DNA of 64,000 nt from a virus. Taxonomy: Duplodnaviria; Caudoviricetes. The stretch lies in IMG/VR virus record IMGVR_UViG_3300012983_000001, positions 128,001 through 192,000 of that record; one strand, 5' to 3'. Each line of letters opens with the position of its first letter. Positions within the stretch are counted from its first letter, which is position 1. The notes below the pieces were generated by a model that was not told the DNA's origin, did no database searches, and worked only from the letters and a program-made list of their open reading frames with translations. Position numbers and translations under genes: made by a program. Shown piece after piece: positions 3,001-64,000 of the stretch.

Positions 3001-5806
3001 CATTCTGGTATATTGCATTGGAAACCGCTGTCTTTTGTTGCATTGTATTAAACGTATTGATATCCAATGCAGAATTATCCATACGTCCCGTAGTTAATAA
3101 TGGACTTGGTAACTCATCTAATGGATTGATTTGTAATCCGTTATTCCAGTATTCATGATGCATTCTTCTTGGCGGACTAATCACAGTACCAATAGTAGAG
3201 CTAAATGCTGGACCAATAATTGGTATATTTTGTCCTACAGGAGCAGTCTGTAAATACGGCCTATCGTGATAATGTTTCTTATCATAATGATTACGGTCAA
3301 AGATAAAATAGTTTAACGGAGCCAACGGATTTACAGGATTAGGATACCATGTATTATTGTAATACTCTTGACGAGAGCCCCATTTGGAATCACTGAATTC
3401 TACATCTGCCTCTACACGACGATAAATATTTGGCCTGAAATACATGATTTTACCACCAGTCCATGGTGTATTACCAGAGCCCCAATATCGTCCCTTACGT
3501 ACAGGGTCATATCCATTTTCAATGTATTCTCGTCGCTCTTCTGCTGTTTGAGTCAAACCAAGTCCGTAATCATGGATACCTAATTGGTCTGCGCCAGGTA
3601 CCATTTCTCCAAGAAACTTAAAGACATCAGTAGCCCCCACTAAGTCCATGGCATTATGAGCACCAACATCTATTGGCCTTACAACATTACGCATGAGATA
3701 TTTACTAATATTGTCACGATTACCTGTTTCGTCTCCACCACCAAAAAACGGTTCTGATAAATAGTTAATAACACCAGGTATCTGTGTTAATGCAAATACA
3801 GGTAATGCTCTTTTAAGAAGCAAATTACCAGCTAATGCCATTGATGAGTTTTTGCTATCTATGCTAAGACCTAATAACTTTGAAGCACCACCTAAACCTT
3901 CTGATAACTGATTAAATACTGTCCACAATATACCAGACCGTTCGGTAAAAAATTCGCTCATAACATCGTCGCCATCTGGAACTTTAGTACGTCCTGCAAC
4001 AAATTGCCTTACAAACCCTTGCAGCTCATACAGTGCATCTTCTGTATTGTTACTCTTAAAAGAGTTATATGCATTTCTTAATTTAAAGCCCTCTTTAGTT
4101 GTGGTATACATTCTAGGGATTTTACCATTATCCATGGTCCCTGCAAAGCCAGTACCAAATGCGCTTTTATACGTACCAGGTTCAATAGCTCTTATCATTT
4201 CTTCCATGTCATTATATTCGAAACCTGTTGTTTGAAATAATGGCCTGTCTGTTATCCATGAGATTGCTCTGTCTGTGATATTGTCTATACTTGTTGCTGT
4301 ATCAAGCGTTTGTCTCGCATCACTAGCTTCTGGATGAAATTCTTGATATCCCATATCAAGCATGTTACCAATACGATGTTTAGCTTTTTGAAACGTAGAC
4401 AATTCGCCGTAACCGTGTTCACGTAAATACTCAACGTATTCTTCAGTTGTTTGTTTGACAGGCTCACCCATACTTAATCCTGCCATTTGTCTTGACGCAT
4501 TTGTTAATGGAGTCAAGCCATAGTGTTCGTCAGCATAAGTAATGTCATGTAATTTCAAACCAGATGCGATTTCTTGTAGCTTACCTTCTCCATCTGTTAC
4601 AAAAGCATTGCCATTGATAACTGCTACTGATTTATCTTGAAACTCTTCACCAAAAGTTTCGGCCAACCAATCACCGATTCTTTTCTGACCGCCAATTCTT
4701 GTAATGTTTGGGTCATATTGACCACTACTAATTAAGCCCATGAGAGGCTTAACTCTACCTGCTTTATCAAATCCTAAAAGTGTTTTAAATGGATTGAATT
4801 GCACTAGTGGCAACTTAAAATCATTTGCTAAAGAATGTTGGAAGCCAACAATATTCTCTTTAGTCATTCTGTAGTCAAGTATACGACCAGCTTCGTCAAT
4901 ACGCATGTCGTTATCTATGATAATATTTCTCCAGTCTTGTTGCCATGCACTAGCATTTCTTGGTCCATATCCATGGAAACCTTCATTAAAGAAATCGGTA
5001 ACTTCGTTCAATAATGCATCATATTTATTATCTACAATGTCGCTTCTGCGCACAAGACGCCGTATACCATCCTGTTGAACAACATCTGCAACATCGCCTA
5101 ATGTCAAACGTTTATATCCAGATTCACGCAATTCTTGTACTACTTGACGTTCGGAAAGAGTCATAAAGCGCATAAATTCCTCCATGGCTTTATGGGTATA
5201 AACAACTCTATCACTGCTTGCAAATTTCTCTAAATGCTTCTCTAAATTAGCCATTTCTTGCATACGATAATGCAGTTCAGTATTACGGGTGTTCTGTCGT
5301 ATTTTTTGCAGACCAGCCTGGTTTTCTTGTATCATACGATGCAACAGTTGCATATCTTGCACTGTGCCATTCATGAGCTCTCTAACGTTGTGGAAGTTCG
5401 TTAAACGAGCACTTGACATGCTCATTGCATCTTGATAGATATCATAAAATAAACTAGTGTCTCTCTGTCTAAATAAACTTAGAGCAGGCGCATTATGTCT
5501 CTGTACCTTAGAACGATTTAGCTGTTCTGGTGTTAAGTGCTTTAATTGTGACCATTGCTTAATTGTAGACATAGCGACAGCTGCTCTATCTGTACCTTCG
5601 CGTGCGACAGTATCAGCAAGCTCTAAGAGTGGTTTCATAATTGGTTTTAGAATACCACTCTTATATAAACCATATCCACCTAAGGCCGCCAAACCAAGAC
5701 CTATTGTATTATACAAAACACCATTATCACTAGTGTCTTGATAATCCTGATAAGTCTGATTAGTCTCTCCTATTGTTCTTTGCTCTAATCTGTTGTCTAA
5801 TGACAC
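1..5806 (-). CDS. Giant tape-measure-like/ejected virion protein (>1,930 aa, runs off the window) with PD-(D/E)XK nuclease and degenerate SNase domains
   Basis: Absent from the ORF track because it has no stop in the window. GTG start at 5806 with SD GAGGTG. Frame is open in all segments translated by hand (MSLDNRLEQRTIGETNQ... to ...AVNIPIPMINATN). Follows two tail chaperones and has Gly-rich hydrophobic segments (e.g. FLGLGGILMGGFIGSLFG near 900-960). Confidence 0.8.
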   Translation of the reverse strand, partial: MSLDNRLEQRTIGETNQTYQDYQDTSDNGVLYNTIGLGLAALGGYGLYKSGILKPIMKPLLELADTVAREGTDRAAVAMSTIKQWSQLKHLTPEQLNRSKVQRHNAPALSLFRQRDTSLFYDIYQDAMSMSSARLTNFHNVRELMNGTVQDMQLLHRMIQENQAGLQKIRQNTRNTELHYRMQEMANLEKHLEKFASSDRVVYTHKAMEEFMRFMTLSERQVVQELRESGYKRLTLGDVADVVQQDGIRRLVRRSDIVDNKYDALLNEVTDFFNEGFHGYGPRNASAWQQDWRNIIIDNDMRIDEAGRILDYRMTKENIVGFQHSLANDFKLPLVQFNPFKTLLGFDKAGRVKPLMGLISSGQYDPNITRIGGQKRIGDWLAETFGEEFQDKSVAVINGNAFVTDGEGKLQEIASGLKLHDITYADEHYGLTPLTNASRQMAGLSMGEPVKQTTEEYVEYLREHGYGELSTFQKAKHRIGNMLDMGYQEFHPEASDARQTLDTATSIDNITDRAISWITDRPLFQTTGFEYNDMEEMIRAIEPGTYKSAFGTGFAGTMDNGKIPRMYTTTKEGFKLRNAYNSFKSNNTEDALYELQGFVRQFVAGRTKVPDGDDVMSEFFTERSGILWTVFNQLSEGLGGASKLLGLSIDSKNSSMALAGNLLLKRALPVFALTQIPGVINYLSEPFFGGGDETGNRDNISKYLMRNVVRPIDVGAHNAMDLVGATDVFKFLGEMVPGADQLGIHDYGLGLTQTAEERREYIENGYDPVRKGRYWGSGNTPWTGGKIMYFRPNIYRRVEADVEFSDSKWGSRQEYYNNTWYPNPVNPLAPLNYFIFDRNHYDKKHYHDRPYLQTAPVGQNIPIIGPAFSSTIGTVISPPRRMHHEYWNNGLQINPLDELPSPLLTTGRMDNSALDINTFNTMQQKTAVSNAIYQNALTTSAYHAKQITSKSFIDKAGITFQQRSILPVRTYDRYDNPYEVYSTPSGALNVVDVPDEMNLYNVNQDLQMYSINKILGTNQQVEINDFMGPGIPVGNDNPSIDNAFVYGMGEQYNWLADIAGLKGFAVQNFITGEANQNARVIENSGYAYSVNNDFWEANLGGLGGGLSEITRRFVPKRNNNVEYINPIRNTMPSWMPGSNYFTDFKHGDPYSKIDNGEERLPGEGYERLHGIKGLMDFNIGSSSIGYEQDYIIKHMLKADKYKSAFEQETLDTGNRIHKEIQQSWLQSGLAIDVEGKIEDKRNGIVGWYDAKVHDVTSPTGTAIVDIKSTSAKKLEEIRKAEKPLTHHMRQTNYYLWATGTPKGYIHYVDKENPMNTYTVGFDYSQKELETTLNNVYGARQTIRDAIETGKLGRGELYSTLDRFRILADVAPYSQEFRDVSAQLSMEKLSTEEQEEVSQIRDRVTQQKEPLRVYPYKFKTSNLKSETVTVAKIIDNNTIITKEYGKRHAIKFAGINVSASESEMYDDKRTKNEAARQAIRSYVKPGAKIRISYDADERNKYSKDSTRSIRAVVHSKGKNVNRVLLEQGHAKEKEDDNSPAGIRARYSQGEIAFGSAMETVTHDIVGSIPFIGSKFMQVRSPYEQYRKREVYGKDFQSWNNPVRDMLIPHVEENIANNRFLGLGGILMGGFIGSLFGKTAFGKIVGATVGASLPAIGKIAFAAGSDKERDWRPKRRREQEKLNEYVDVLKYVKNMRLYEQYKTKAKRENNFDVERFMKSHEAQGVTNSLRQRELIDFKRKVKLDFKHRDRYNFKYGEPKYVEQSMTKQETIRAINQELSELQSQRKVTKLPLNAMRAIEYKQAADKTMYGYEPGDSLVNIMSALPKKERQYFKHFMDAPEEEKQKILRIAPSYLRRALQSAWGMPVDKKPSLQEYFQTHGLPDASWIGWNEATNIEDVKVKLVHQNNLDPGEFDIWESDEEQADAVNIPIPMINATN

Positions 5807-7068: not shown

Positions 7069-7437
7069 TTACATTAAATTTTGTGTGGTGTCTTTAATCA
7101 TTTCACTGATATCTTGCATTAAGGATTCAACCTGTTGCTTTTTCTCAGCGATTTCTTCTTCTGAAGCTTGTTTCTTTTGCAACGTTAGCAATTCTTTTTC
7201 ACGCTTAGTCTTTTCTTCTTCAACATGCTCAACCTTAGCCATTGTCAAATAGAAGCCAGCGTAAATACCTGCGAATCCAAACGCTGAAATAATTAGCTGT
7301 GGTAACGCTTCATAGTTACCTGTATCGTGCATTTCTTTCATGGTGTATAAAGTAATAATGGATATAAAAGCAAAAGCAATCAGGCCGATAAGTTTAGACA
7401 TTGCCATAAAACGAAATTTAGGTCTTGTCTTTTTCAT
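7069..7437 (-). CDS. Two-TM membrane protein with C-terminal coiled coil (holin-like candidate)
   Basis: Basic N-terminus, two hydrophobic helices, charged tail. Confidence 0.45.
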   Translation of the reverse strand: MKKTRPKFRFMAMSKLIGLIAFAFISIITLYTMKEMHDTGNYEALPQLIISAFGFAGIYAGFYLTMAKVEHVEEEKTKREKELLTLQKKQASEEEIAEKKQQVESLMQDISEMIKDTTQNLM

Positions 7438-56487: not shown

Positions 56488-56514
56488 TCCTTTCTTATAA
56501 GTATCTTAATATAT

Positions 56515-56544
56515 AATATACCCGATAAGGTACCAGTTTTGCAA
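56515..56544 (-). promoter_or_regulatory. Promoter of the regulator/morphogenesis operon
   Basis: TTGCAA-18 nt-TATATT; overlaps the recurrent GTATATTATA motif. Confidence 0.5.
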
Positions 56545-56604
56545 CATAATATTACTAATTTGGGGCGAAGCCCCCGTTTTTTCCACTCTTTTTTTGTAAC
56601 ATCG

Positions 56605-56695
56605 TATGACAAAGGGCTCCAGAGAGTAACACTCTGGAGCCCTTGCCGTAGGAACAAATGCCTATAAACTTACACGAAGGAGAAGCCTATGCTTC
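56605..56695 (-). ncRNA. Candidate anti-SD small RNA 1 (~90 nt)
   Basis: Promoter at 56702-56730; body contains CUUCUCCUUCG; ends in a 13-bp hairpin (56608-56647); no ORF on this strand. Confidence 0.6.
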
Positions 56696-56701
56696 AATCT
56701 C

Positions 56702-56730
56702 ATCATAGCATGACTTTGGCCATTATGCAA
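56702..56730 (-). promoter_or_regulatory. sigmaA-type promoter of sRNA 1
   Basis: TTGCAT-17 nt-TATGAT with TGn extension. Confidence 0.7.
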
Positions 56731-56769
56731 GCAAATTTTTAATATATATATTTTTCAGACCAACGTTTA

Positions 56770-56856
56770 CAACAAAGACCAGCGAGGCTAATGCGAACCC
56801 CACTGGTCTTTTTAGTTGACTCGAAAAGGAATGTAGAAAGAATTATTCTCACCACA
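56770..56856 (-). ncRNA. Candidate anti-SD small RNA 2 (~85 nt)
   Basis: Extended -10 TGaTATTCT at 56863-56871; seed UUUCUACAUUCCUUU; terminator 56774-56811 whose G-U pairs work only on the minus strand. Confidence 0.55.
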
Positions 56857-56899
56857 TGTTAAAGAATATCACAGTTTCATTTAATAAACTACTGGAAAT

Positions 56900-57076
56900 C
56901 TATTCCTTATTAAAGTCTACTTTAAATAGAAACTGCTTAACCTCTTCGAACTCAAAGTTATGTACATCCCCAAGGACTTCTTTGACATGGTTATAAGCTG
57001 CAAGTAAATTTACATGATTGTCCTGAGAATATCGAAATGTCATTTCTGACACTTCTTCAAGTTCCAGATTTCTCAT
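56900..57076 (-). CDS. Small hypothetical protein (58 aa)
   Basis: Below the ORF-track cutoff; MRNLELEEVSEMTFRYSQ...VDFNKE; SD AGGAGGT and its own promoter. Confidence 0.7.
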   Translation of the reverse strand: MRNLELEEVSEMTFRYSQDNHVNLLAAYNHVKEVLGDVHNFEFEEVKQFLFKVDFNKE

Positions 57077-57100
57077 TATAAATTACCTCCTGTGTCTAAA

Positions 57101-57129
57101 GTTATATCACATTTTGTCACAAAAAGCAA
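57101..57129 (-). promoter_or_regulatory. sigmaA-type promoter of the 58-aa gene
   Basis: TTGCTT-17 nt-TATAAC with TGn extension. Confidence 0.7.
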
Positions 57130-57145
57130 ATTTCACTCTATTATT

Positions 57146-57192
57146 CGGACCGTAGGTCCGTTTTGTTATGGTTGTATCGGGCCGTAGGCCCG
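57146..57192. repeat. Two 15-bp palindromes CGG(A/G)CC-GTA-GG(T/C)CCG, 32 bp apart
   Basis: 57146-57160 and 57178-57192, with a compensatory A-T to G-C change between copies. Confidence 0.85.
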
Positions 57193-57427
57193 CTTAACCA
57201 TGGGCGCAAAAGAAACACTAATCGTTGCAACAGATATATAGTCGCAAAATAAAACCCACCAGTTGCTTTACATTTTGGTACATGATACTCGAACAGATGT
57301 TCGGCCAGTATAGGGTAAATTTATATATATATTTTTGGGGGGAACCTGCTTTTAATCTTGTATGATGTTCTTTAGTTCGATACCCCACCCTATGTGTGGA
57401 AGACAATAAAGATTGGAGGAATTGGTT

Positions 57428-57874
57428 ATGAAGAAACATGAGAAAAGATACCATGAAGTAGTTAGTAACAAAGTAGCAAGTGTATATGTTCAGGAGTTTT
57501 ATTTTCCAAAGTTTAGAACATTCACAGATGGCACAGATACTATTGAAACACAGTACACTGAGAATATCAGTATTTGTGTAGGTAAGAGTAGACGTGCTAA
57601 TAATGATTGGTTCAATGGTGATAAGACTGGAGATAAGATACACAATAAATCTACAGGTAATATCGCTACATTCATGAGTATCGTTGATACCTTGACACTG
57701 CATATCCTTGAGTTCCATCACATCTATGGATACTACTGTTGTACATTCACCCCTACTGATGATAAGAGACGTAAGACCTATCTTAAGGCTATCAAGCATC
57801 TGTGTAGGGAGTGCTATCTCACATTCAAGTATGTAATATGTGATGATAACGAACTAATGATATGGATTGAATAA
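57428..57874 (+). CDS. Early hypothetical protein
   Basis: ATG 57428 with SD GGAGGA; first plus-strand gene. Confidence 0.7.
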   Translation: MKKHEKRYHEVVSNKVASVYVQEFYFPKFRTFTDGTDTIETQYTENISICVGKSRRANNDWFNGDKTGDKIHNKSTGNIATFMSIVDTLTLHILEFHHIYGYYCCTFTPTDDKRRKTYLKAIKHLCRECYLTFKYVICDDNELMIWIE

Positions 57875-57897
57875 CTCACATTAAAGGAGGGATTGTT

Positions 57898-58089
57898 ATG
57901 AATAACCGCATAACCCTGTCTCATGATGACATGATGCTTATCGTATCTGCATTAGCTGCATATCCAGGTGTAGTTAAGAAAATGCATCACAATGATGATT
58001 CCATGGGTGACATTACCCGTGCTACGAACCAGTGTGTCGAAATCGGTATGAAGATTATTGACATGATGGATGCAATCGAGCAGCAGTAG
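57898..58089 (+). CDS. Early hypothetical protein (63 aa)
   Basis: SD AAAGGAGG. Confidence 0.7.
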   Translation: MNNRITLSHDDMMLIVSALAAYPGVVKKMHHNDDSMGDITRATNQCVEIGMKIIDMMDAIEQQ

Positions 58090-58093
58090 TGTA

Positions 58094-58120
58094 TGTCCTG
58101 AGCATGACAATAAAAGGCTC
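58094..58120 (+). ncRNA. H-type pseudoknot motif, copy 1
   Basis: S1 TGTC/GACA, S2 GAGC/GCTC, A-rich loop 3. Confidence 0.6.
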
Positions 58121-58184
58121 TCTCCTCTGGGGGAGACTAAATAGGCAGTTAGGCCCAGAGCGTTAGTAGAAATACTAGGTCTGC
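58121..58184 (+). ncRNA. Pistol self-cleaving ribozyme
   Basis: TCTCC TCTGGG GGAGA CTAAATA G GCAG TTAGG CCCAGA GCG TTAGTA GAAA TACTAG GT CTGC. P1, 6-bp pseudoknot, P2, P3 and the conserved AAAUA, GCG and GU are all present. Predicted cut G58179/U58180. Confidence 0.93.
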
Positions 58185-58240
58185 ACACAACAAAAAATAA
58201 AATAAAGACCCATGTGTAGAGGGCAGATTGGAGAAACCAT

Positions 58241-58510
58241 ATGAGTTATCAGATGAACAACCAGGAAAACGAAGCTATGAGACAGTACAGCTACAGAGAA
58301 CGTAGTCGTATAGCAAGAGAGAAAAAGAGACAGGAATTTATCTCTAACTTTATTGCTGTTGTAGTAGGTGTACTCATGATGCTTGCATTTGCGTATGCAT
58401 TCGTATATGCACTTGCTAATGAACCGTTTAATGCACCTGTTGCTAATCCAGCGTACATAAACGAGTATGAAACACCAGATGTACCAAGATACATCTACCC
58501 TGAAGAGTAG
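58241..58510 (+). CDS. Small single-TM membrane protein flanked by two ribozymes
   Basis: Basic patch followed by FIAVVVGVLMMLAFAYAFVYALA. Confidence 0.7.
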   Translation: MSYQMNNQENEAMRQYSYRERSRIAREKKRQEFISNFIAVVVGVLMMLAFAYAFVYALANEPFNAPVANPAYINEYETPDVPRYIYPEE

Positions 58511-58517
58511 TACTACA

Positions 58518-58592
58518 TGCAGAGTGGCATAGGGACTGTACATCCCTATGTTAATGCACTATCCCATATAGGGATACTGGTCACAAGTCCAG
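58518..58592 (+). ncRNA. Twister ribozyme, circularly permuted (P5-type order)
   Basis: TGCA-GAGTG, P1 hairpin GCATAGGGA/TCCCTATGT, TAA-TGCAC, P3 TATCCC/GGGATA, P4 CTGG-TCACAAGT-CCAG; T1 CAC/GTG, T2 AC/GT. P2/T2 is 1 nt shorter than consensus. Predicted cut U58552/A58553. Confidence 0.75.
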
Positions 58593-58623
58593 GTGCAAAT
58601 ATAATCCTAAGGAGGATAAGGTT

Positions 58624-59298
58624 ATGAAGATTAAGAATCTGTATTATGGCATTATCGGTCTTATTGCTTACTACAAGCAGACCAAGGCAAACAAGGTTAA
58701 TCTTAAGGCTACTAAAGCTAATAAGGTTGACGTAGTAACTGTTGATGATAGGGAATTAAGTATTCACTACATCCCTGACATGAATAAGCGTGGTGTTGCA
58801 TATGGAGCAATCTTTGTTTTCCCACATCTTGACAAAAAGACATTCATCGGTGTGGATGACAAATTCTATGCATTACCGCAGGAATTACAACAGGCAGTGA
58901 TTTACCATGAGGTAGGGCATTATGCACATGGTCACTTTAGTAACAAGGGGTTCCGCTATATCTGGCAACAGTGTGTACAGTTAGGCAAGATTGCTGTTGC
59001 TTCTGAAGACCAGAAGGCTAACCTGTTATACGAGTTTACCATGATGACTCGTAATGACAACGAGGAGTATGAAGCAGATGCCTATGCAGTTAATAAGGTA
59101 GGAGCTCATGCTGTTGCTGCTTTGCTCTTAACGTTCTATAGCTTGTACCCTAGTGAGGAACTTGCTATCAGATATCAAAAGGTTACTGGTGAAGCAATCG
59201 AAACAAGTAGTGCTTTTCTGGAGCTTAAGAAACAAATGGCACAACAATTTACTTCTATCTTTAAGGATGCTGAAGTAGTATCCATTGAGACTTTATAA
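58624..59298 (+). CDS. Zinc metalloprotease (M48/M56-like zincin)
   Basis: AVIYHEVGH and EYEADAYA motifs. Confidence 0.8.
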   Translation: MKIKNLYYGIIGLIAYYKQTKANKVNLKATKANKVDVVTVDDRELSIHYIPDMNKRGVAYGAIFVFPHLDKKTFIGVDDKFYALPQELQQAVIYHEVGHYAHGHFSNKGFRYIWQQCVQLGKIAVASEDQKANLLYEFTMMTRNDNEEYEADAYAVNKVGAHAVAALLLTFYSLYPSEELAIRYQKVTGEAIETSSAFLELKKQMAQQFTSIFKDAEVVSIETL

Positions 59299-59321
59299 AC
59301 CTAGATTACATTAAGGAAAGG

Positions 59322-59951
59322 ATGGTAGTTATGATGAACACTACAACAAACAAGGTATTGGAGAAACTAGTAAACGCAGGCGCACTGGAAAGAATCGCAA
59401 AGGACTTAAAGCTAGACAAGGTTCCAACTATTGTATATGACGGAGAAGGTGATTACGTCATGGCAGCGTCTGGACAAGTATGGGCTCGTGGTAATCTGTT
59501 CCATGAAACAGTTACAAAGACTGAAAGTGACTATGTTATTCATGTCAACACCAAGGCCTTAGCTGATACTCAGAGACAGTATTGTATGCTGACTTTAAAC
59601 CCTCAGATTATGACAGACATTACACTGATATTACTGAAACACGAATGCCGTCATATCTGGCAATATCAGAATCAGTTCACGGTTGGTGATGTTCGCGAAA
59701 AATTCTCTTTTCGTTTAGAAGCTCATGGAGATTCCAAGGTAGAGCGTGATGCAAACGAGTACGCAGTACAGAAAAGCAAAGGCAGACGCTATATCTTAGC
59801 TCTTCATGCAAAAATGTTACAAGAGAAAAACCCATTCTCATTTGGACCTTCTACAGAAGAGATACATTTAAACCATGAGGTAATGCGTGCGTATTTTCCT
59901 ATTGCACATTACATAATCAATAAACTTACAGGAGGTAAGAAATATGTATAA
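59322..59951 (+). CDS. Zinc metalloprotease-like protein (HExxH)
   Basis: LLKHECRHIWQY and VERDANEYA. Confidence 0.75.
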   Translation: MVVMMNTTTNKVLEKLVNAGALERIAKDLKLDKVPTIVYDGEGDYVMAASGQVWARGNLFHETVTKTESDYVIHVNTKALADTQRQYCMLTLNPQIMTDITLILLKHECRHIWQYQNQFTVGDVREKFSFRLEAHGDSKVERDANEYAVQKSKGRRYILALHAKMLQEKNPFSFGPSTEEIHLNHEVMRAYFPIAHYIINKLTGGKKYV

Positions 59952-60258
59952 GATTAGTCAAATTGTACAGGACTGTGTCAACGGTTGCACTGCAAACAAT
60001 CTCATCGAAGACTACATGCATTTCATGATTAACTATTATGTTAATACTGAACATGGTCAGGGTACCAAGTATCGTTGTTTCGTATACAACATACAAGACT
60101 TAGAGGTCAATCTCTATCATATTATTAGAGAAAATATCTCTCCTACTACTGATGTTGTTATTACAGACATCACCGTAAAAGACAGTGGCGAAATCATTCG
60201 TGTGAACCCTAAGAATTATTCTTACAGCATGGACTATTTCATGGATATGCTTCGTTAA
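59944..60258 (+). CDS. Early hypothetical protein
   Basis: SD AGGAGGT; overlaps the upstream stop. Confidence 0.65.
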   Translation: MYKISQIVQDCVNGCTANNLIEDYMHFMINYYVNTEHGQGTKYRCFVYNIQDLEVNLYHIIRENISPTTDVVITDITVKDSGEIIRVNPKNYSYSMDYFMDMLR

Positions 60259-60260
60259 TC

Positions 60261-60316
60261 ATCTTCTATTCTTTGAGGGCATCACAATGAGTGGTGTCCT
60301 TTCTAGTGTAGAAGAT
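60261..60316 (+). other. Long bulged stem-loop (RNase III-like processing site candidate)
   Basis: ATCTTCTA/TAGAAGAT lower stem, internal loop, GAGGGCATCAC/GTGGTGTCCTT upper stem; no U-tract. Confidence 0.55.
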
Positions 60317-60346
60317 ACACTAATTCACTATAAGGAGGTGAGCAAT

Positions 60347-60499
60347 ATGACTACTACTTATACCAAGCACACACCAACAAAAGAACCTAAGAAAACATAT
60401 AATAACCATGCTAGTTTTGGTTTTTATCTTAGAACTGGTGTGCCATACAATCCTCGTATGAGCGAGAGAGAAAAGAAGGCTTTAATAAGCCGCAGATAG
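60347..60499 (+). CDS. Small basic early protein (50 aa)
   Basis: SD AAGGAGGTG before MTTTYTK; the upstream ATG in the track lies inside the hairpin. Confidence 0.65.
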   Translation: MTTTYTKHTPTKEPKKTYNNHASFGFYLRTGVPYNPRMSEREKKALISRR

Positions 60500-60504
60500 C
60501 ACTG

Positions 60505-60533
60505 GGTCCTGGAGTATGACCTAAAACTGCTTC
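60505..60533 (+). ncRNA. H-type pseudoknot motif, copy 2
   Basis: S1 GGTC/GACC, S2 GGAGTA/TGCTTC, loop TAAAAC. Confidence 0.6.
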
Positions 60534-60576
60534 TGTTACCAGTAAACATCCTAACATGGATTGGAGGTGATACGCC

Positions 60577-60753
60577 ATGGATGTTGATATTACACTGTCT
60601 AGTATAGCTGTGACTTATATTAAGCATGGACTTATGAGACAAGAAGAACTGGAAGGACATAAAGACCTTCTAAAAGACTGCTTGAATAGACGCGCGATTC
60701 AAGTATTTAACAACGGCCACGAGTACGATACTCGCAAAGACTATTTTCTCTAA
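60577..60753 (+). CDS. Small early protein (58 aa)
   Basis: Below the track cutoff; SD GGAGGTGA; MDVDITLSSIAVTYIKHG...RKDYFL. Confidence 0.7.
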   Translation: MDVDITLSSIAVTYIKHGLMRQEELEGHKDLLKDCLNRRAIQVFNNGHEYDTRKDYFL

Positions 60754-60769
60754 GAAAGAGGTGTAGGTC

Positions 60770-61840
60770 ATGGAAGTATTAAATGTATACGTTGGCAAAG
60801 AACAGGTAAAGTTCGATTTAGGTAATCTATTGGGTGTTGATGTAGAGATATGGGATAAGCTTACATATCAGACTGCAAAGAAACATCAAGATTTAATTCC
60901 TGCGATTGAGATATGTATCGAGGATTGCCTTGGTACTGCGGTAAATATCGTAGATGAGGTTAGTTTTAAACTAGCCATTGCTGATTTAGTGAACATTATC
61001 CAAGGTGATAATGCAATAAATATTAAGGAGGATACTATTATGATGAACAACACTACTAACCAGAACATGGAAATGGCAATGGAAGAGATGCAGAAGAAGG
61101 CAGGCATCGGAGAATTACTCAAAGAAACAAAGGATGCAGTTATCCACGGAGTAATTTCTAAGACACACAAGACTAAGGAACAGTACGTACAGCAGGTTGA
61201 TGAATCTGCTAACGTGGTTAAGGGTGCAATGGTTGTTACTCTTGACAAGATGTCCGCAGTGCTTGGTTACAATGCTCTAAAGGAAAGTATCTTAGGCATC
61301 ATTGAAGCAGGTACTTGTAATGGCAAGACTGATTTATTCGCAATGGCCGAGGAATGCAGAAAGCGTATTGACCTTGAGGTTGAGACACTTCTTGCATGGG
61401 GTAGCGAAGAAGATTTCAGAAAGGCTGCACAGTTAAAAGCTTTATCTAAAGACCAGAGAGGCAAGTCTATCTTTGAAGCTTTAGTATCCATGTTAATTTG
61501 GATTGCTAAATGGGTAGCTAAGACACTCAGAAAATGGTTCCAGGTAGACAATGAGAAATCCATTATTGGTGCTCTTTGCCGTGCTCTTTCTGGTTTTGCT
61601 GCTGTGGTACGTGAAGGCGTTAAGTTAGTATGGCACACTGCAAAGTTTGGTGTAAGCTTTGTAATTGCTGGCGCTATTAAGCTTGGCGTGTGGATTATCA
61701 ATACATTTAAGACTTTCTGTGAAGGCATCAAAGGATGGTTTAACAAGAAGAATGAAATGATTGATGATGAGGAAGACCAGTTCTTCTTTGTTGCAGATGA
61801 AGAGGGCAATCTTGTAATTCCTGACGAAGACGAAGAATAA
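60770..61840 (+). CDS. Early hypothetical protein with amphipathic helices and acidic tail
   Basis: 356 aa; in-frame internal SD/ATG at 61040. Confidence 0.75.
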   Translation: MEVLNVYVGKEQVKFDLGNLLGVDVEIWDKLTYQTAKKHQDLIPAIEICIEDCLGTAVNIVDEVSFKLAIADLVNIIQGDNAINIKEDTIMMNNTTNQNMEMAMEEMQKKAGIGELLKETKDAVIHGVISKTHKTKEQYVQQVDESANVVKGAMVVTLDKMSAVLGYNALKESILGIIEAGTCNGKTDLFAMAEECRKRIDLEVETLLAWGSEEDFRKAAQLKALSKDQRGKSIFEALVSMLIWIAKWVAKTLRKWFQVDNEKSIIGALCRALSGFAAVVREGVKLVWHTAKFGVSFVIAGAIKLGVWIINTFKTFCEGIKGWFNKKNEMIDDEEDQFFFVADEEGNLVIPDEDEE

Positions 61841-61850
61841 TCGTCACTAC

Positions 61851-61891
61851 TAGTCCAATGGGTGTGTAAGACTATAAACTGCTATCACCCA
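61851..61891 (+). ncRNA. H-type pseudoknot motif, copy 3 (extended S2)
   Basis: S1 TAGTC/GACTA, S2 TGGGTG/CACCCA plus GTA/TGC, loop TAAAC. Confidence 0.6.
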
Positions 61892-61915
61892 TAACTACTA
61901 TACATATACATGAAC

Positions 61916-61974
61916 TATACTCCCTGGTGTTACTTGAATACGTTTACGGGTTATCTTTAACACCAGGGGGTATA
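61916..61974 (+). other. 17-bp stem-loop (RNase III-like candidate)
   Basis: TATACTCCCTGGTGTTA / TAACACCAGGGGGTATA with one G-U pair. Confidence 0.6.
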
Positions 61975-61998
61975 TGTATATATCCCACCTTAATGGTT

Positions 61999-62054
61999 TG
62001 CTGTCGTAGCGGTAAAAGTCCGTTACCTGATGATTGGCATGAGCCGAAACAGCA
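61999..62054 (+). ncRNA. Hammerhead ribozyme, type III
   Basis: TGCTG-TC-GTAGCGG TAAAAGT CCGTTAC-CTGATGA-TT-GGC ATGA GCC-GAAA-CAGCA. GUC triplet, cut after C62005; 2-nt insertion before stem II. Confidence 0.88.
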
Positions 62055-62152
62055 TCAGAGATTCTCACGCGGGGATGGTAAGGATAACATCGTTAAGACT
62101 TCCAAACACTATAAACTATTTTATGGGTTGATAACCCAGAAAGGAGTATAGC

Positions 62153-63025
62153 ATGAAACAGAAAACAACTACTAGTCATGCAAAGAAGGCGACTACTACA
62201 AGTAACGCCAAGACCGCAACCAACAACCAGAACACTACACAGGAGGTAGCTACTATGAAGAACGCAAACGTACACGCAACTGATTATTTATCCAAGGATA
62301 AGATTCGTGAAGAACTTAAAGTGCTCGGTATTGAGTTATCCAACTCTAAGTTCAAGAACACCAAGAGAGAAGTATTACTTGAGATGCTTGAAGCTAAGAA
62401 GGCAGAGACTACTACTGCTAATGCAACTAAGCCTGCTATGCCAATTGCACCTGTATCTACTGACATTCCTGTTGGTGATTTAGAGATTACCAAAGACAAT
62501 GCTCCTCAGGAGATTCCAGTAGAACAGGAACAACCGAAAAAGAGCACCGTACAGATTCTCTACGATGTAGTTGCTAACTGCTGTTACGTACAGTATTACA
62601 GCAAGAAGCAGGTTGCTAAGAACTATGTCAGCGATTATATGTTGAAGTCCTGTATTAACCATGTACTTCACGGCAAGTACTCCAAGGAAAAGAATGGACA
62701 GGATAATACATTCACGGATATTCAGCAGAAGCAGACCGAGTTCATTAAGGATAAGTTAATCCAGGCTGGTTTTGTTACCGAACATAAGGGTACAGGTTAT
62801 ATCATCAAGGCAAGACTCATGGCATGGTACTACGAGGGAGCTCTGAAGCTTCATGTTGTTTACAGATTCCGCTACGAAGATAAGTCCAAGGGCTATGTAG
62901 ACTACAAGGTAGACTTTGCTAAGAACGAGCTGCTTAATCTCCGTGACAACAAGGTTACCAAGCTGGATGATGCAGGCTGGGCTAAGGTTGATGCAACTCT
63001 CAACTTCAACAGAACTATGAAATAA
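62153..63025 (+). CDS. Early protein with HeH/Rho-N-like nucleic-acid-binding motif
   Basis: LSKDKIREELKVLGI...TKREVLLEML; SD AAAGGAG; second in-frame SD/ATG at 62255. Confidence 0.7.
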   Translation: MKQKTTTSHAKKATTTSNAKTATNNQNTTQEVATMKNANVHATDYLSKDKIREELKVLGIELSNSKFKNTKREVLLEMLEAKKAETTTANATKPAMPIAPVSTDIPVGDLEITKDNAPQEIPVEQEQPKKSTVQILYDVVANCCYVQYYSKKQVAKNYVSDYMLKSCINHVLHGKYSKEKNGQDNTFTDIQQKQTEFIKDKLIQAGFVTEHKGTGYIIKARLMAWYYEGALKLHVVYRFRYEDKSKGYVDYKVDFAKNELLNLRDNKVTKLDDAGWAKVDATLNFNRTMK

Positions 63026-63064
63026 TGCAACAGCTCCTGGATGTGCTGAAAGGAGGTGATTAAC

Positions 63065-63118
63065 ATGCACATTCAAAACCTTTACCAACCGCTTGCTCCC
63101 GCTTTCCCAAACTGGTAA
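63065..63118 (+). CDS. 17-aa micro-ORF MHIQNLYQPLAPAFPNW
   Basis: Near-perfect SD AAAGGAGGTGA upstream; followed by a GC hairpin at 63141-63162. Confidence 0.5.
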   Translation: MHIQNLYQPLAPAFPNW

Positions 63119-63187
63119 CCATAATACGATGATAATACAACAGCGCCCCGTTAGGGGCGCTGACTCCAAGAAAGGATGGTGCTTTAT

Positions 63188-63601
63188 ATGTCTTACAGTA
63201 TCTTTGACAAATGTCTTACCGCAGATGGTTGCAAATATTACTGCAACCAGGTGGCTAATCGTCTCGGCCTTAAGCCGTTCTTTTATTATTACGACAAGCT
63301 CAACAATCTTCAATTCCCTGGGAACTCTAATGTACATTCATTCAAGGAGTTTCGTGAATATGAGAGCTGGAGAATTAAGTTCAACTTAACTAATCCAGCT
63401 ACTATTAAGAAAGCAGGCCTTGATGAGTATGTATTGAAGCATAAGGAGCTTGCGTTCCATTTAACAATTAAGGGTTACTCTTTCCTGTTAATGTGCAAAT
63501 TCTCACAGCCTAACCATAATGAAGCTGCTTGTACTATACAGGAAACTGTTAAACCCATTTATATAGAAGAAACTAATGGCCAGTTAAGATTAAACTTATA
63601 A
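63188..63601 (+). CDS. Early hypothetical protein
   Basis: ORF in track (63176); likely start MSYSIF. Confidence 0.65.
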   Translation: MSYSIFDKCLTADGCKYYCNQVANRLGLKPFFYYYDKLNNLQFPGNSNVHSFKEFREYESWRIKFNLTNPATIKKAGLDEYVLKHKELAFHLTIKGYSFLLMCKFSQPNHNEAACTIQETVKPIYIEETNGQLRLNL

Positions 63602-63614
63602 GGAGGAACTCATT

Positions 63615-64000
63615 ATGAAGAACACAATTATCGAAGCTATGAAGAAACTCAACCAGGAACTTGTTCACCGCTGTATTGTTTATGATGCTCCAGATATTCC
63701 TGACCAGTACAATCAGTGTGCATCTCTGGATGGAGTGTACGACTGGGGATTTACTGTTGTTACCTACTGTGATGTTCTTGACCCAATCATGACTTTCTAT
63801 GACTGGGAATTTCAGAGCATTGTATCCATTGATTTGGATGATGAGACTCAGTATCACTTACGTCATGGAATGTTATCTGTCAAGCAGTCCTATATGTTTA
63901 GTGATACGGTTCAGAAGTTTGTTGTAAATCTTACCCGCGGTGCTGCTGTTCATGAGAAAGATATCCAGGCAATTGGGTACATGCCAAACTTAGGTCTCTC
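63615..64000 (+). CDS. Early hypothetical protein (partial, runs off the window)
   Basis: SD AAGGAGG; MKNTIIEAMKKLNQEL... open to the window end. Confidence 0.7.
   Translation, partial: MKNTIIEAMKKLNQELVHRCIVYDAPDIPDQYNQCASLDGVYDWGFTVVTYCDVLDPIMTFYDWEFQSIVSIDLDDETQYHLRHGMLSVKQSYMFSDTVQKFVVNLTRGAAVHEKDIQAIGYMPNLGL

What the first reader, a model, noticed from the sequence alone, without database searches (positions are those of the whole stretch)
58094..61891. Recurrent H-type pseudoknot placed 4-10 nt after stop codons (three covarying copies)
Copies at 58094-58120, 60505-60533 and 61851-61891 share GTCC...G(C/T)A(T/A)GAC..AAA..GCT. Both stems vary while keeping pairing (TGTC/GACA, GGTC/GACC, TAGTC/GACTA; GAGC/GCTC, GGAGTA/TGCTTC, TGGGTG/CACCCA), and loop 3 is A-rich. 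I cannot assign a named family. Hypotheses: a 3'-exonuclease block for processed mRNAs (two copies precede ribozymes), a protein-binding tag, or a mimic of the similarly sized pseudoknot antitoxins of type III toxin-antitoxin systems.
Basis: partly seen in the sequence, partly recalled or inferred. Interest (0 to 1): 0.75.

Follow-up and report, generated by a model that had tools for sequence, protein, structure and literature searches.

The report
Widespread phage pseudoknot after stop codons
The three repeats are real copies of a tiny (27-41 base) interlocked RNA fold that phages of very different bacteria place a few bases after a gene's stop codon. It is in no RNA catalogue, its core closely resembles the plant-virus 'coremin' RNA that stops RNA-degrading enzymes and ribosomes, and its job in phages is untested.

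Summary
Observation confirmed. All three copies sit where stated, 4, 5 and 10 nt after stop codons in the early operon of a 208-kb crAss-like phage. A covariance model finds no further copy in the genome.

The fold is real. Nine related phages, found by protein synteny, keep the copy-3 site with seven different fully complementary versions of stem 2. Copies 1 and 2 also have orthologues with compensatory changes.

The short form is very widespread. It occurs in more than 120 IMG/VR contigs, in MAGs of many phyla, and in named phages of Staphylococcus, Lactobacillus, Mycobacterium, Arthrobacter, Bacillus, Paracoccus, Nostoc and Synechococcus. In 140 sequences, 90.7% of pair cells are paired, against 21-47% when partners are slid.

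Rfam 15 has no match. The closest known relative is the coremin Xrn1-resistant RNA (xrRNA-C/WCC) of plant RNA viruses, but the phage form lacks coremin's obligatory second hairpin.

Most likely function (inferred, about 0.4): a mechanical roadblock at gene boundaries that shields message ends from exonucleases. It often abuts tRNA 5' ends or a pistol ribozyme, and one relative has a plain GC hairpin in its place.

This scan reported the same motif earlier on other DNA.

The parts
58094..58120 (+). Pseudoknot copy 1 (short form, slightly degenerate). S1 is 58094-97/58106-09, L1 is C58098, S2 is 58100-03/58117-20, and loop 3 is A-rich but lacks the usual AAAC-UG. It lies 4 nt after TAG 58087-89 and directly abuts pistol stem P1.
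   Evidence: 33.1 bits. The orthologue in L011 at 3781-3809 has a compensatory S2 and also directly abuts a pistol ribozyme.
60505..60533 (+). Pseudoknot copy 2 (short form). S1 is 60505-08/60518-21, L1 is C60509, S2 is 60511-16/60528-33, and loop 3 is 60522-27. It lies 5 nt after TAG 60497-99 and 44 nt before the start codon at 60577.
   Evidence: 28.2 bits. Orthologues at L011 5635, L013 5603, L014 5948 and L015 5836 show S1 and S2 changes that keep pairing.
61851..61891 (+). Pseudoknot copy 3 (long form). S1 is 61851-55/61870-74, L1 is 61856-58, S2 is 61859-64/61886-91, L2 is 61865-69, and loop 3 is 61875-85. It lies 10 nt after TAA 61838-40, at the head of a 312-nt non-coding gap.
   Evidence: Nine syntenic orthologues carry seven different fully complementary 6-bp S2 helices.
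58121..58184 (+). Pistol ribozyme, starting at the base after copy 1.
   Evidence: Rfam RF02679, 44.7 bits against a gathering score of 34.5.
58518..58592 (+). Twister-P5 ribozyme. This is context only; no pseudoknot copy is beside it.
   Evidence: Rfam RF02684, 47.1 bits.
61999..62054 (+). Hammerhead-like element about 108 nt downstream of copy 3, with 2 extra bases between the CUGAUGA core and stem II.
   Evidence: No Rfam hit at E<=10. It is conserved in L011, L013 and L017 with covarying stems I and III and a 1-3 nt insertion at the same place.
57898..58089 (+). 63-aa ORF whose stop codon precedes copy 1.
   Evidence: no Pfam or PHROG family.
60287..60499 (+). Small ORF (70 aa as listed; the true start may be further downstream) whose stop codon precedes copy 2.
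60770..61840 (+). 356-aa ORF whose stop codon precedes copy 3. It served as the synteny anchor for finding orthologous sites.

Best explanation
The three elements belong to a widespread, uncatalogued family of phage RNA pseudoknots.

Consensus of the short form:
- S1: N-GUC paired with GAC-N'.
- Loop 1: a single C.
- S2: 5-7 bp, usually UG-NNN-CA paired with UG-N'N'N'-CA.
- One junction U.
- Loop 3: NN-AAAC, lying along S1.

I read the element as a compact, mechanically robust roadblock placed at cistron boundaries of long phage transcripts. It sits as close behind the stop codon as it can without being melted by the terminating ribosome. There it stops processive enzymes at the gene boundary, so that the adjoining message segment keeps a defined, protected end.

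The most likely case is protection of the upstream ORF against 3'-to-5' exonucleases once the transcript is cut just downstream (RNase P at a tRNA, a self-cleaving ribozyme, or an endonuclease in the unstructured leader).

Shown here: the fold, its conservation, its placement and its neighbours. Inferred: the roadblock function and its direction.
For: Structure:
- Seven compensatory S2 variants occur at the orthologous copy-3 site.
- Copies 1 and 2 have compensatory orthologues.
- Family alignment A1: 90.7% of cells paired against 80.5% shuffled and 21-47% slid; 157 cells changed on both sides against 55 +/- 12 (0/500 shuffles).
- U.G wobbles are seen on the listed strand in the IMG/VR copies, which points to RNA of that strand.

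Placement:
- The stop of an ORF of at least 40 codons lies 4-7 nt upstream in 34% of 128 family members, against 2.3% of random positions. For 4-16 nt the figures are 57% against 7%.
- The mode is 5 nt, with a sharp lower bound and a long upper tail.
- That shape suits 'as near as allowed' better than a fixed recoding distance.

Neighbours that create RNA ends:
- At least 10 of 131 copies have a co-directional tRNA starting 2-10 nt downstream (also Nostoc phage NMeng1 and Arthrobacter phage Molivia).
- Copy 1 and its L011 orthologue abut a pistol ribozyme.

Interchangeability:
- In relative L015 the slot between the stop codon and the pistol holds a plain 7-bp GC hairpin instead.
- In this clade's early operon most of the longer gaps after genes carry a pseudoknot, a long stable hairpin or a ribozyme.

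Roadblock capacity of the fold type:
- The related coremin and Watson-Crick coremin RNAs stall Xrn1, block scanning ribosomes and stimulate frameshifting (PMC6546385, PMC10520033, PMC10321173).
Against: - No RNA-end or half-life data exist for any member.
- A plain hairpin suffices to stop 3' exonucleases, so this reading does not explain why about 17 of 27 positions are nearly fixed in phages of unrelated hosts.
- The only experimentally characterised relatives (coremin) stop a 5'-to-3' enzyme and need a second hairpin that the phage form lacks.
- In Staphylococcus and Lactobacillus phages the element precedes the scaffold and major-capsid genes. That placement would fit protection of the downstream segment, or translational control, at least as well.
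- Most copies are followed by an ordinary G-poor leader and a gene, with no known processing site.
Confidence: 0.4

Rival explanations
1. A prokaryotic xrRNA. Like coremin against Xrn1, the pseudoknot stalls a 5'-to-3' exoribonuclease (RNase J type), or 5'-end-dependent decay, coming from upstream. It thereby protects the downstream cistron, tRNA or ribozyme segment.
For: The core matches coremin.
- The hp1 stem has a pyrimidine-purine closing pair, and the first loop base is C.
- The spacer reads G-UU-AAAC-U. In BNYVV, U13U14 may be changed, whereas A16, A17, C18 and U19 may not (PMC6546385). In the phage alignment the first two loop-3 bases vary and AAA-C-U are 90-100% conserved.
- S1 variants seen in phages (middle pair flipped in Staphylococcus and Lactobacillus phages, third pair flipped in a Vibrio phage) are of the kinds coremin tolerates.

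In Staphylococcus and Lactobacillus phages the element precedes the highly expressed scaffold and capsid genes. 102 of 124 copies are followed by a co-directional gene.
Against: - hp2, which is strictly required for Xrn1 resistance of both coremin types (PMC10321173), is absent. The 30 nt downstream are less structured than random 30-mers: -2.2 against -3.4 kcal/mol.
- Protecting a tRNA precursor's 5' side is pointless, because RNase P removes the leader, yet about 8% of copies sit 2-10 nt before a tRNA.
- Some carriers are gammaproteobacterial MAGs or phages, a group said from my own knowledge mostly to lack RNase J. I could not test RNase J presence (one search was uninformative).
Confidence: 0.2
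2. A ribosome-directed signal. The knot is wedged at the mRNA entry channel while the stop codon is in the A site. It either tunes termination or recycling, or bars read-through and post-termination ribosomes from sliding into the next leader, tRNA or ribozyme (a translational insulator).
For: - The modal spacing of 5-6 nt after the stop codon equals the spacing of frameshift-stimulating knots from the A-site codon (geometry from general knowledge of the ribosomal helicase site).
- Coremin-type knots block ribosomes and stimulate -1 frameshifting in vitro (PMC10321173, PMC10520033).
- The ribosome is a partner common to all hosts, which would explain conservation across phyla.
Against: - Spacing is not fixed. 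Nearly half of the stop-linked copies lie 7-16 nt away, and the copy-3 orthologues range from 8 to 16 nt.
- There is no slippery heptamer upstream. In-frame, -1 and +1 continuations are short (medians 12, 13 and 6 codons), so no recoded product is made.
- Stop-codon usage is unremarkable.
- A plain hairpin replaces the element in L015.
Confidence: 0.15
3. A specific binding site for a small ligand or for a conserved protein (riboswitch-like element or operator) that regulates the downstream gene.
For: Near-invariant loop and junction bases across phyla are typical of aptamers. The architecture resembles the preQ1-I riboswitch (own knowledge).
Against: - No Rfam riboswitch family matches, even at E<=10.
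- The knot is fully closed (single-base L1, single junction U), with no loop left to form a pocket.
- Its 3' strand does not overlap the next ribosome-binding site, and the distance to the next start codon is very variable (10th-90th percentile 16-220 nt).
- I identified no protein family shared by the carrier phages, though this was not searched for systematically. The neighbouring genes are unrelated.
Confidence: 0.07
4. A mimic of the pseudoknotted antitoxin RNAs of type III toxin-antitoxin systems, used as a counter-defence decoy.
Against: - The copies are dispersed behind different genes, not in a tandem array.
- No ToxN-family gene is in the genome (weak evidence).
- The same sequence core occurs in phages of Firmicutes, Actinobacteria, Cyanobacteria, Proteobacteria and Bacteroidota, whereas type III antitoxins are system-specific.
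- There is no sequence likeness to the ToxI repeat (own knowledge).
Confidence: 0.02

Closest known systems
Coremin motif (xrRNA-C) of beny-, cucumo- and other RNA viruses, and its Watson-Crick variant xrRNA-WCC (Dilweg et al. 2019, 2023: PMC6546385, PMC10520033, PMC10321173)
   Same: - A 3-5 bp first hairpin with a C-G closing pair, and C as the first loop base.
- A spacer reading G-UU-AAAC-U, with the same pattern of free positions (the first two) and fixed positions (AAA, C, U).
- A proposed H-type knot between the hairpin loop and the end of the spacer, with adenines along the minor groove of S1.
- Often located just behind the last ORF; the SPlV5 example lies 8 nt after its stop codon.
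- Sometimes repeated.
   Different: - The phage form has a long canonical S2 of 5-7 bp, against 3 non-canonical or Watson-Crick pairs in coremin.
- The loop is C-UG...CA-U, not YGAD or YGNNAD.
- The spacer continues UG-N..., not UAC.
- It lacks the obligatory second hairpin hp2.
- It occurs in DNA phages of bacteria, which have no Xrn1.
- The two coremin papers I term-searched do not mention bacteria or phages (context).
- The full coremin 20-mer is from my own memory; only positions 5 and 12-21 are confirmed by the papers' text.
Luteovirus/enamovirus compact -1 frameshift pseudoknots (BWYV, PLRV, PEMV-1, ScYLV)
   Same: - Same size class (26-28 nt).
- A cytosine as the first base of a short loop 1 in the S2 major groove.
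- A single junction U.
- An A-rich loop 3 ending in AAAC in the S1 minor groove.
- Placed 5-8 nt after the codon in the A site.
   Different: - No slippery heptamer; a stop codon occupies that place.
- No extended shifted frame.
- S2 is longer and S1 shorter.
- BWYV-type knots do not stall Xrn1 (PMC10321173).
MuLV-type stop-codon read-through pseudoknots
   Same: A knot a few bases after a stop codon.
   Different: The in-frame continuation is short (median 12 codons; only 6 of 59 exceed 60 codons). All three stop codons are used and spacing is variable.
STAXI motif (Rfam RF01728; PMC2864571)
   Same: A small repeated pseudoknot in mobile-element and phage-like DNA.
   Different: STAXI is a tandem array of two or three units with UUCG loops, found in Enterobacterales. 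No RF01728 match appears at E<=10 here.
3'-end stabilising hairpins and REP-like elements of bacterial operons
   Same: Placed behind stop codons inside polycistronic transcripts. A hairpin occupies the equivalent slot in relative L015.
   Different: Those are sequence-free hairpins. This element is a knot with a nearly fixed sequence core across phyla.

Membership tests
Coremin xrRNA-C | hp1 of 3-5 bp whose loop-closing pair is 5'-pyrimidine/3'-purine | tested here: met
   S1 is 4-5 bp with a C-G closing pair in all three window copies and in all 140 aligned members. The flipped variants in Staphylococcus and Vibrio phages keep the C-G closing pair.
Coremin xrRNA-C | Loop 1 consensus YGAD (4 nt) or YGNNAD (6 nt) | tested here: not met
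   The loop is C, then U-G...C-A-U (8-9 nt), or C-A-A-U-G... in the long form. Only the leading pyrimidine agrees.
Coremin xrRNA-C | Conserved ~10-nt spacer G-UU-AAAC-UAC, with A16-A20 essential | tested here: inconclusive
   The AAAC-U part is shared and conserved, but the final AC is replaced by the S2 3' strand. Copy 1 of the window even lacks the C-U.
Coremin xrRNA-C / xrRNA-WCC | Second hairpin (hp2) directly after the spacer, required for Xrn1 resistance | tested here: not met
   The 30 nt downstream of 131 members fold more weakly than random 30-mers (-2.2 against -3.4 kcal/mol; 10% against 24% at or below -5) and are G-poor. Exceptions are copies followed at once by pistol P1 or a tRNA stem.
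Coremin xrRNA-C / xrRNA-WCC | Stalls Xrn1 in vitro | not testable with these tools
   Needs an enzyme assay.
-1 PRF stimulatory pseudoknot | Slippery heptamer 5-8 nt upstream and an extended -1 frame | tested here: not met
   The upstream 27 nt of 59 members show no X-XXY-YYZ site, and the median -1 continuation is 13 codons. The same holds for the window copies.
Stop-codon read-through pseudoknot | Long in-frame ORF continuing through the knot | tested here: not met
   The median in-frame continuation is 12 codons. Copy 1 meets TGA after 3 codons.
preQ1-I riboswitch (RF00522) and other Rfam pseudoknot riboswitches | Match to the family covariance model | tested here: not met
   No hit at E<=10 in 56500-64000, none at E<=5 in five canonical loci, and none in three named phages.
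Type III toxin-antitoxin antitoxin RNA | Tandem repeats next to a ToxN/AbiQ-type endoribonuclease gene | tested here: not met
   The copies are 1.3-2.4 kb apart behind unrelated ORFs. There is no PF13958 match in the genome, although that search's control genomes also did not ring.
STAXI (RF01728) | Match to the family model; tandem units | tested here: not met

The most novel reading that the evidence does not exclude
The phage pseudoknot is the prokaryotic counterpart of eukaryotic-virus xrRNAs. On this reading it is a minimal, near-universal fold, sharing its core with plant-virus coremin, that directionally stalls processive RNA enzymes (RNase J-type 5'-3' exonucleases and ribosomes) in bacteria. 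Phages would use it to cut long transcripts into segments of different stability. That would make exonuclease-resistant RNA a strategy common to viruses of bacteria and eukaryotes. It would also raise the question of whether the 20-nt core arose twice or moved between them.
Probability: 0.15. Interest if true: 0.9.

Novelty: new variant of a known kind. Interest (0 to 1): 0.78.

Why it matters
About 17 of the 27 bases are nearly fixed in phages of Firmicutes, Actinobacteria, Cyanobacteria, Proteobacteria and Bacteroidota, in gut Microviridae and in a 208-kb crAss-like phage. That makes it one of the most widely shared cis-elements in phage genomes, yet Rfam 15 lacks it and I found it in none of the papers searched.

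Its core matches an RNA from plant viruses that is known to stop Xrn1 and ribosomes. This gives a concrete, cheap hypothesis to test on how phages set the ends and lifetimes of individual messages within polycistronic transcripts.

It would also be a compact, host-independent part for synthetic operons (an insulator or stabiliser), and a useful annotation mark for gene ends in metagenomic phage contigs.

Tried and rejected
- **Rfam.** The gathering-threshold scan of the whole genome gave only pistol, twister-P5 and tRNAs. E-value scans of the region, of five canonical loci and of three named phages gave nothing for the motif.
- **BLAST of the 7-kb region against INPHARED.** No match.
- **IMG/VR search with the 224-aa neighbouring protein.** No relatives.
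- **The loose regex alone.** Not significant.
- **Long-form DNA pattern in IMG/VR.** Mostly chance matches with a weak S2, so I did not use them.
- **Half of the genome-contig hits.** These lie inside conserved coding genes with no S2, including all the Enterobacterales hits, and were discarded.
- **Host correlation with RNase J.** The TIGR00649 control rang in 13 of 14 genomes without saying which passed the cut-off, so it was uninformative. I dropped this as evidence.
- **Stop-codon reassignment.** No suppressor tRNA was called among the 15 tRNAs (one is an unassigned call with a 4-base anticodon), so I did not pursue this.
- **Literature searches.** Searches for RAGATH, for phage pseudoknot with stop codon, and for phage structured-RNA screens found no description of this motif. 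Weinberg 2015 could not be opened.
- **MAFFT alignment of the long-form orthologues (A2).** It was not in structural register, so pairs there were read by eye rather than counted.
- **Downstream gene orientation.** It did not discriminate between protection of upstream and of downstream RNA.

Full report
**What is in the window**

The window is bases 128,001-192,000 of a single 208,433-bp virus record with terminal repeats and 15 tRNA genes. A long minus-strand block ends near 57.8 kb, and a plus-strand block of small genes without recognised families starts at 57,898. Relatives carry an RdRP-fold RNA polymerase gene with a Rho_N domain a few kb downstream. From my own knowledge, that is the crAss-like type.

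- Copy 1 is 58094-58120, 4 nt after TAG.
- Copy 2 is 60505-60533, 5 nt after TAG.
- Copy 3 is 61851-61891, 10 nt after TAA.

Each can form an H-type pseudoknot with an A-rich third loop.

**Is it more than chance?**

The loose shared string is not unusual by itself: 6 matches against 3.8 expected. Across the whole genome, however, only these three of the nine loose-string matches carry the full motif directly after a stop codon. A covariance model built later from 140 family members finds copy 1 (33.1 bits), copy 2 (28.2 bits) and part of copy 3, and nothing else credible in 208 kb.

**Orthologous sites**

The 356-aa protein before copy 3 has 32 relatives at 33-98% identity. I fetched the DNA of nine distinct relatives. 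In every one the same element lies 8-16 nt after that gene's stop codon.

Across these sites:
- The S1 core, the loop bases after it and the loop-3 core (U-AAAC-U) are constant.
- The six S2 pairs change on both sides. There are seven different, fully complementary helices among the nine sequences with the long form of the element.
- The outer S1 pairs also change in step.

Copies 1 and 2 have orthologues too. The L011 counterpart of copy 1 has a different 5-bp S2 and again touches a pistol ribozyme. The copy-2 counterparts change S1 from G-C to C-G ends and turn a G.U pair into A-U. These sites were found by protein synteny, not by the motif, so this evidence is unbiased.

**A very large family**

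- In 82 of 127 hits the bases after AAAC are a complete complement of the loop, with at least a dozen distinct helices.
- Many contigs have two to four copies.
- U.G wobbles are seen on the listed strand in these copies, which would be A-C mismatches on the other strand and so points to RNA of that strand.

In the 140-sequence alignment, 90.7% of pair cells are standard pairs, against 80.5% after shuffling partners and 21-47% after sliding them. There are 157 cells changed on both sides, against 55 +/- 12 in shuffles (0 of 500 shuffles reach this). The three inner S1 pairs in that set were fixed by my search pattern, so their invariance there means nothing. BLAST-found members show they can flip: the middle pair in Staphylococcus and Lactobacillus phages, and the third pair in a Vibrio phage.

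Named carriers:
- Staphylococcus phietaviruses (83 records)
- Lactobacillus phage phiEF-1.1
- Mycobacterium phage Labelle
- Arthrobacter phage Molivia
- Bacillus phage Edson
- Paracoccus phage ParMal1
- Nostoc phage NMeng1
- Synechococcus phage S-EIVl
- Moorella phage MTATph1
- a gut Microviridae record

Genuine copies also occur in MAGs of many phyla, presumably in prophages or binned phage contigs. The Enterobacterales hits were false.

**Not catalogued**

Rfam 15 gives no match at permissive thresholds in the window, in canonical loci or in named phages. My literature searches on phage RNA motifs found no description.

This scan has met the motif before on other DNA (e1-370971, e1-5348825, e1-3410594, e1-5131032). 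One of those notes named coremin as the nearest relative, and I checked that lead in the papers.

**Comparison with coremin**

For BNYVV coremin the papers give the following:
- a 3-5 bp hairpin whose closing pair must be pyrimidine-purine;
- a loop starting with C5 (consensus YGAD or YGNNAD);
- a spacer G12-U13-U14-A15-A16-A17-C18-U19-A20-C21, in which U13U14 may be replaced but A16, A17, C18, U19 and A20 may not;
- an obligatory second hairpin, hp2.

A Watson-Crick variant forms a canonical 3-bp S2. Both types stall Xrn1. Coremin also blocks scanning ribosomes, and both types stimulate -1 frameshifting; the Watson-Crick variant does so even without hp2.

The phage element shares the hairpin, the leading C and the spacer G-NN-AAAC-U, with the same split into free and fixed positions.

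It differs in three ways:
- its loop sequence;
- its long canonical S2;
- the lack of hp2. The 30 nt downstream are less structured than random 30-mers and G-poor.

It therefore works like, and probably folds like, a coremin-type knot, but it does not meet the family's definition.

**Placement and neighbours**

- Among 128 strict family members, the stop of an ORF of at least 40 codons lies 4-7 nt upstream in 34% (random positions 2.3%) and 4-16 nt upstream in 57% (random 7%).
- The mode is 5 nt, with almost nothing closer and a long tail.
- There is no slippery site, and the continuations in all three frames are short. Frameshifting and read-through products are therefore excluded.
- At least 10 of 131 copies are followed within 2-10 nt by the first tRNA of a cluster.
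- Copy 1 and its L011 orthologue are followed at once by a pistol ribozyme.
- In relative L015 the same slot, between the stop codon and the pistol, holds a plain 7-bp GC hairpin.
- Across this clade's early operon, most of the longer gaps after genes hold a pseudoknot, a long hairpin or a ribozyme.
- In Staphylococcus and Lactobacillus phages the element separates the head-morphogenesis gene from the scaffold and capsid genes.

**Interpretation**

I read the element as a compact mechanical roadblock that marks and shields cistron boundaries.

The sharp lower limit of 5 nt equals the reach of the ribosomal helicase beyond the A-site codon (general knowledge). The knot therefore sits as near as it can while staying folded during termination.

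The links to tRNA 5' ends and ribozymes, and the hairpin substitute in L015, favour protection of the upstream message's new 3' end (confidence about 0.4).

Two rivals remain open. The coremin likeness and the position before capsid genes keep a 5'-to-3' xrRNA-like role open (about 0.2). The spacing and the universality of the ribosome keep a termination or insulator role open (about 0.15).

None of these readings explains fully why so many bases are fixed across phyla. That remains the unexplained and most interesting feature.

A ligand or protein site is unlikely (about 0.07) and an antitoxin mimic very unlikely (about 0.02).

Noticed in passing
window 61999-62054; L011 ~7230-7290, L013 ~7230-7290, L017 ~7215-7280: A type III hammerhead-like element that Rfam misses. 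It is conserved in three relatives with covarying stems I and III, a constant stem-I loop, and a 1-3 nt insertion between the CUGAUGA core and stem II. It is absent from L002, L014, L015, L016, L018 and L019.
   Followed up: partly
window ~60259-60330; L013 after 4503, L014 after 4521 and 5704, L015 after 4707 and 5533, L017 after 5708, L019 after 4710: A second recurrent element of this clade's early operon: a long (10-20 bp) hairpin ending in a conserved UAGUGUAG ... ACACUA box, placed just after stop codons. In the window the listed ATG at 60287 lies inside it, so the 70-aa ORF probably starts further downstream, near 60348.
   Followed up: no
window 61922-61968 and orthologous gaps: A long stem between copy 3 and the hammerhead-like element. 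It is conserved in most relatives, with changes on both strands (CCCUGGU... against CCCCUAGU...) and a conserved ACUUGAA box in its loop.
   Followed up: no
window ~62122-62145; same place in all nine relatives: A small conserved hairpin with a UGAUGA-type loop, immediately followed by the AGAAAGGAG ribosome-binding site of the gene that starts at 62153.
   Followed up: no
window 63141-63162 (listed on the minus strand) and after the orthologous gene in L011, L013, L014, L016, L017, L019: A very GC-rich 8-9 bp hairpin with a tetraloop and no U tract follows the 290-aa to 418-aa gene in every relative. It may be a stabiliser or a terminator for the phage polymerase.
   Followed up: no
L015 3097-3126: A plain 7-bp GC hairpin occupies the place of pseudoknot copy 1, between the stop codon and the pistol ribozyme. 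L015 also has the pistol/twister-P5 pair flanking a small ORF, as the window does.
   Followed up: partly
L010 14129-14223 (genome ~206,028-206,122): A 95-nt tRNA that ARAGORN calls with a four-base anticodon (ttag) and no amino-acid assignment. Rfam scores it at 45 bits as a tRNA.
   Followed up: no
L199 (Anaerolineae MAG) ~676-730; L284 (four copies); L047, L088, L161 (three each): Some contigs carry tandem or many dispersed copies of the pseudoknot. In L199 a second copy starts directly after the first.
   Followed up: no
IMG/VR loci L050, L064, L069, L078, L145, L151, L158, L163: In one group of marine-type phages the knot is followed by a G-free leader with repeated ACUACGAAC-like words and a start codon without a Shine-Dalgarno sequence, 20-28 nt downstream.
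   Followed up: no
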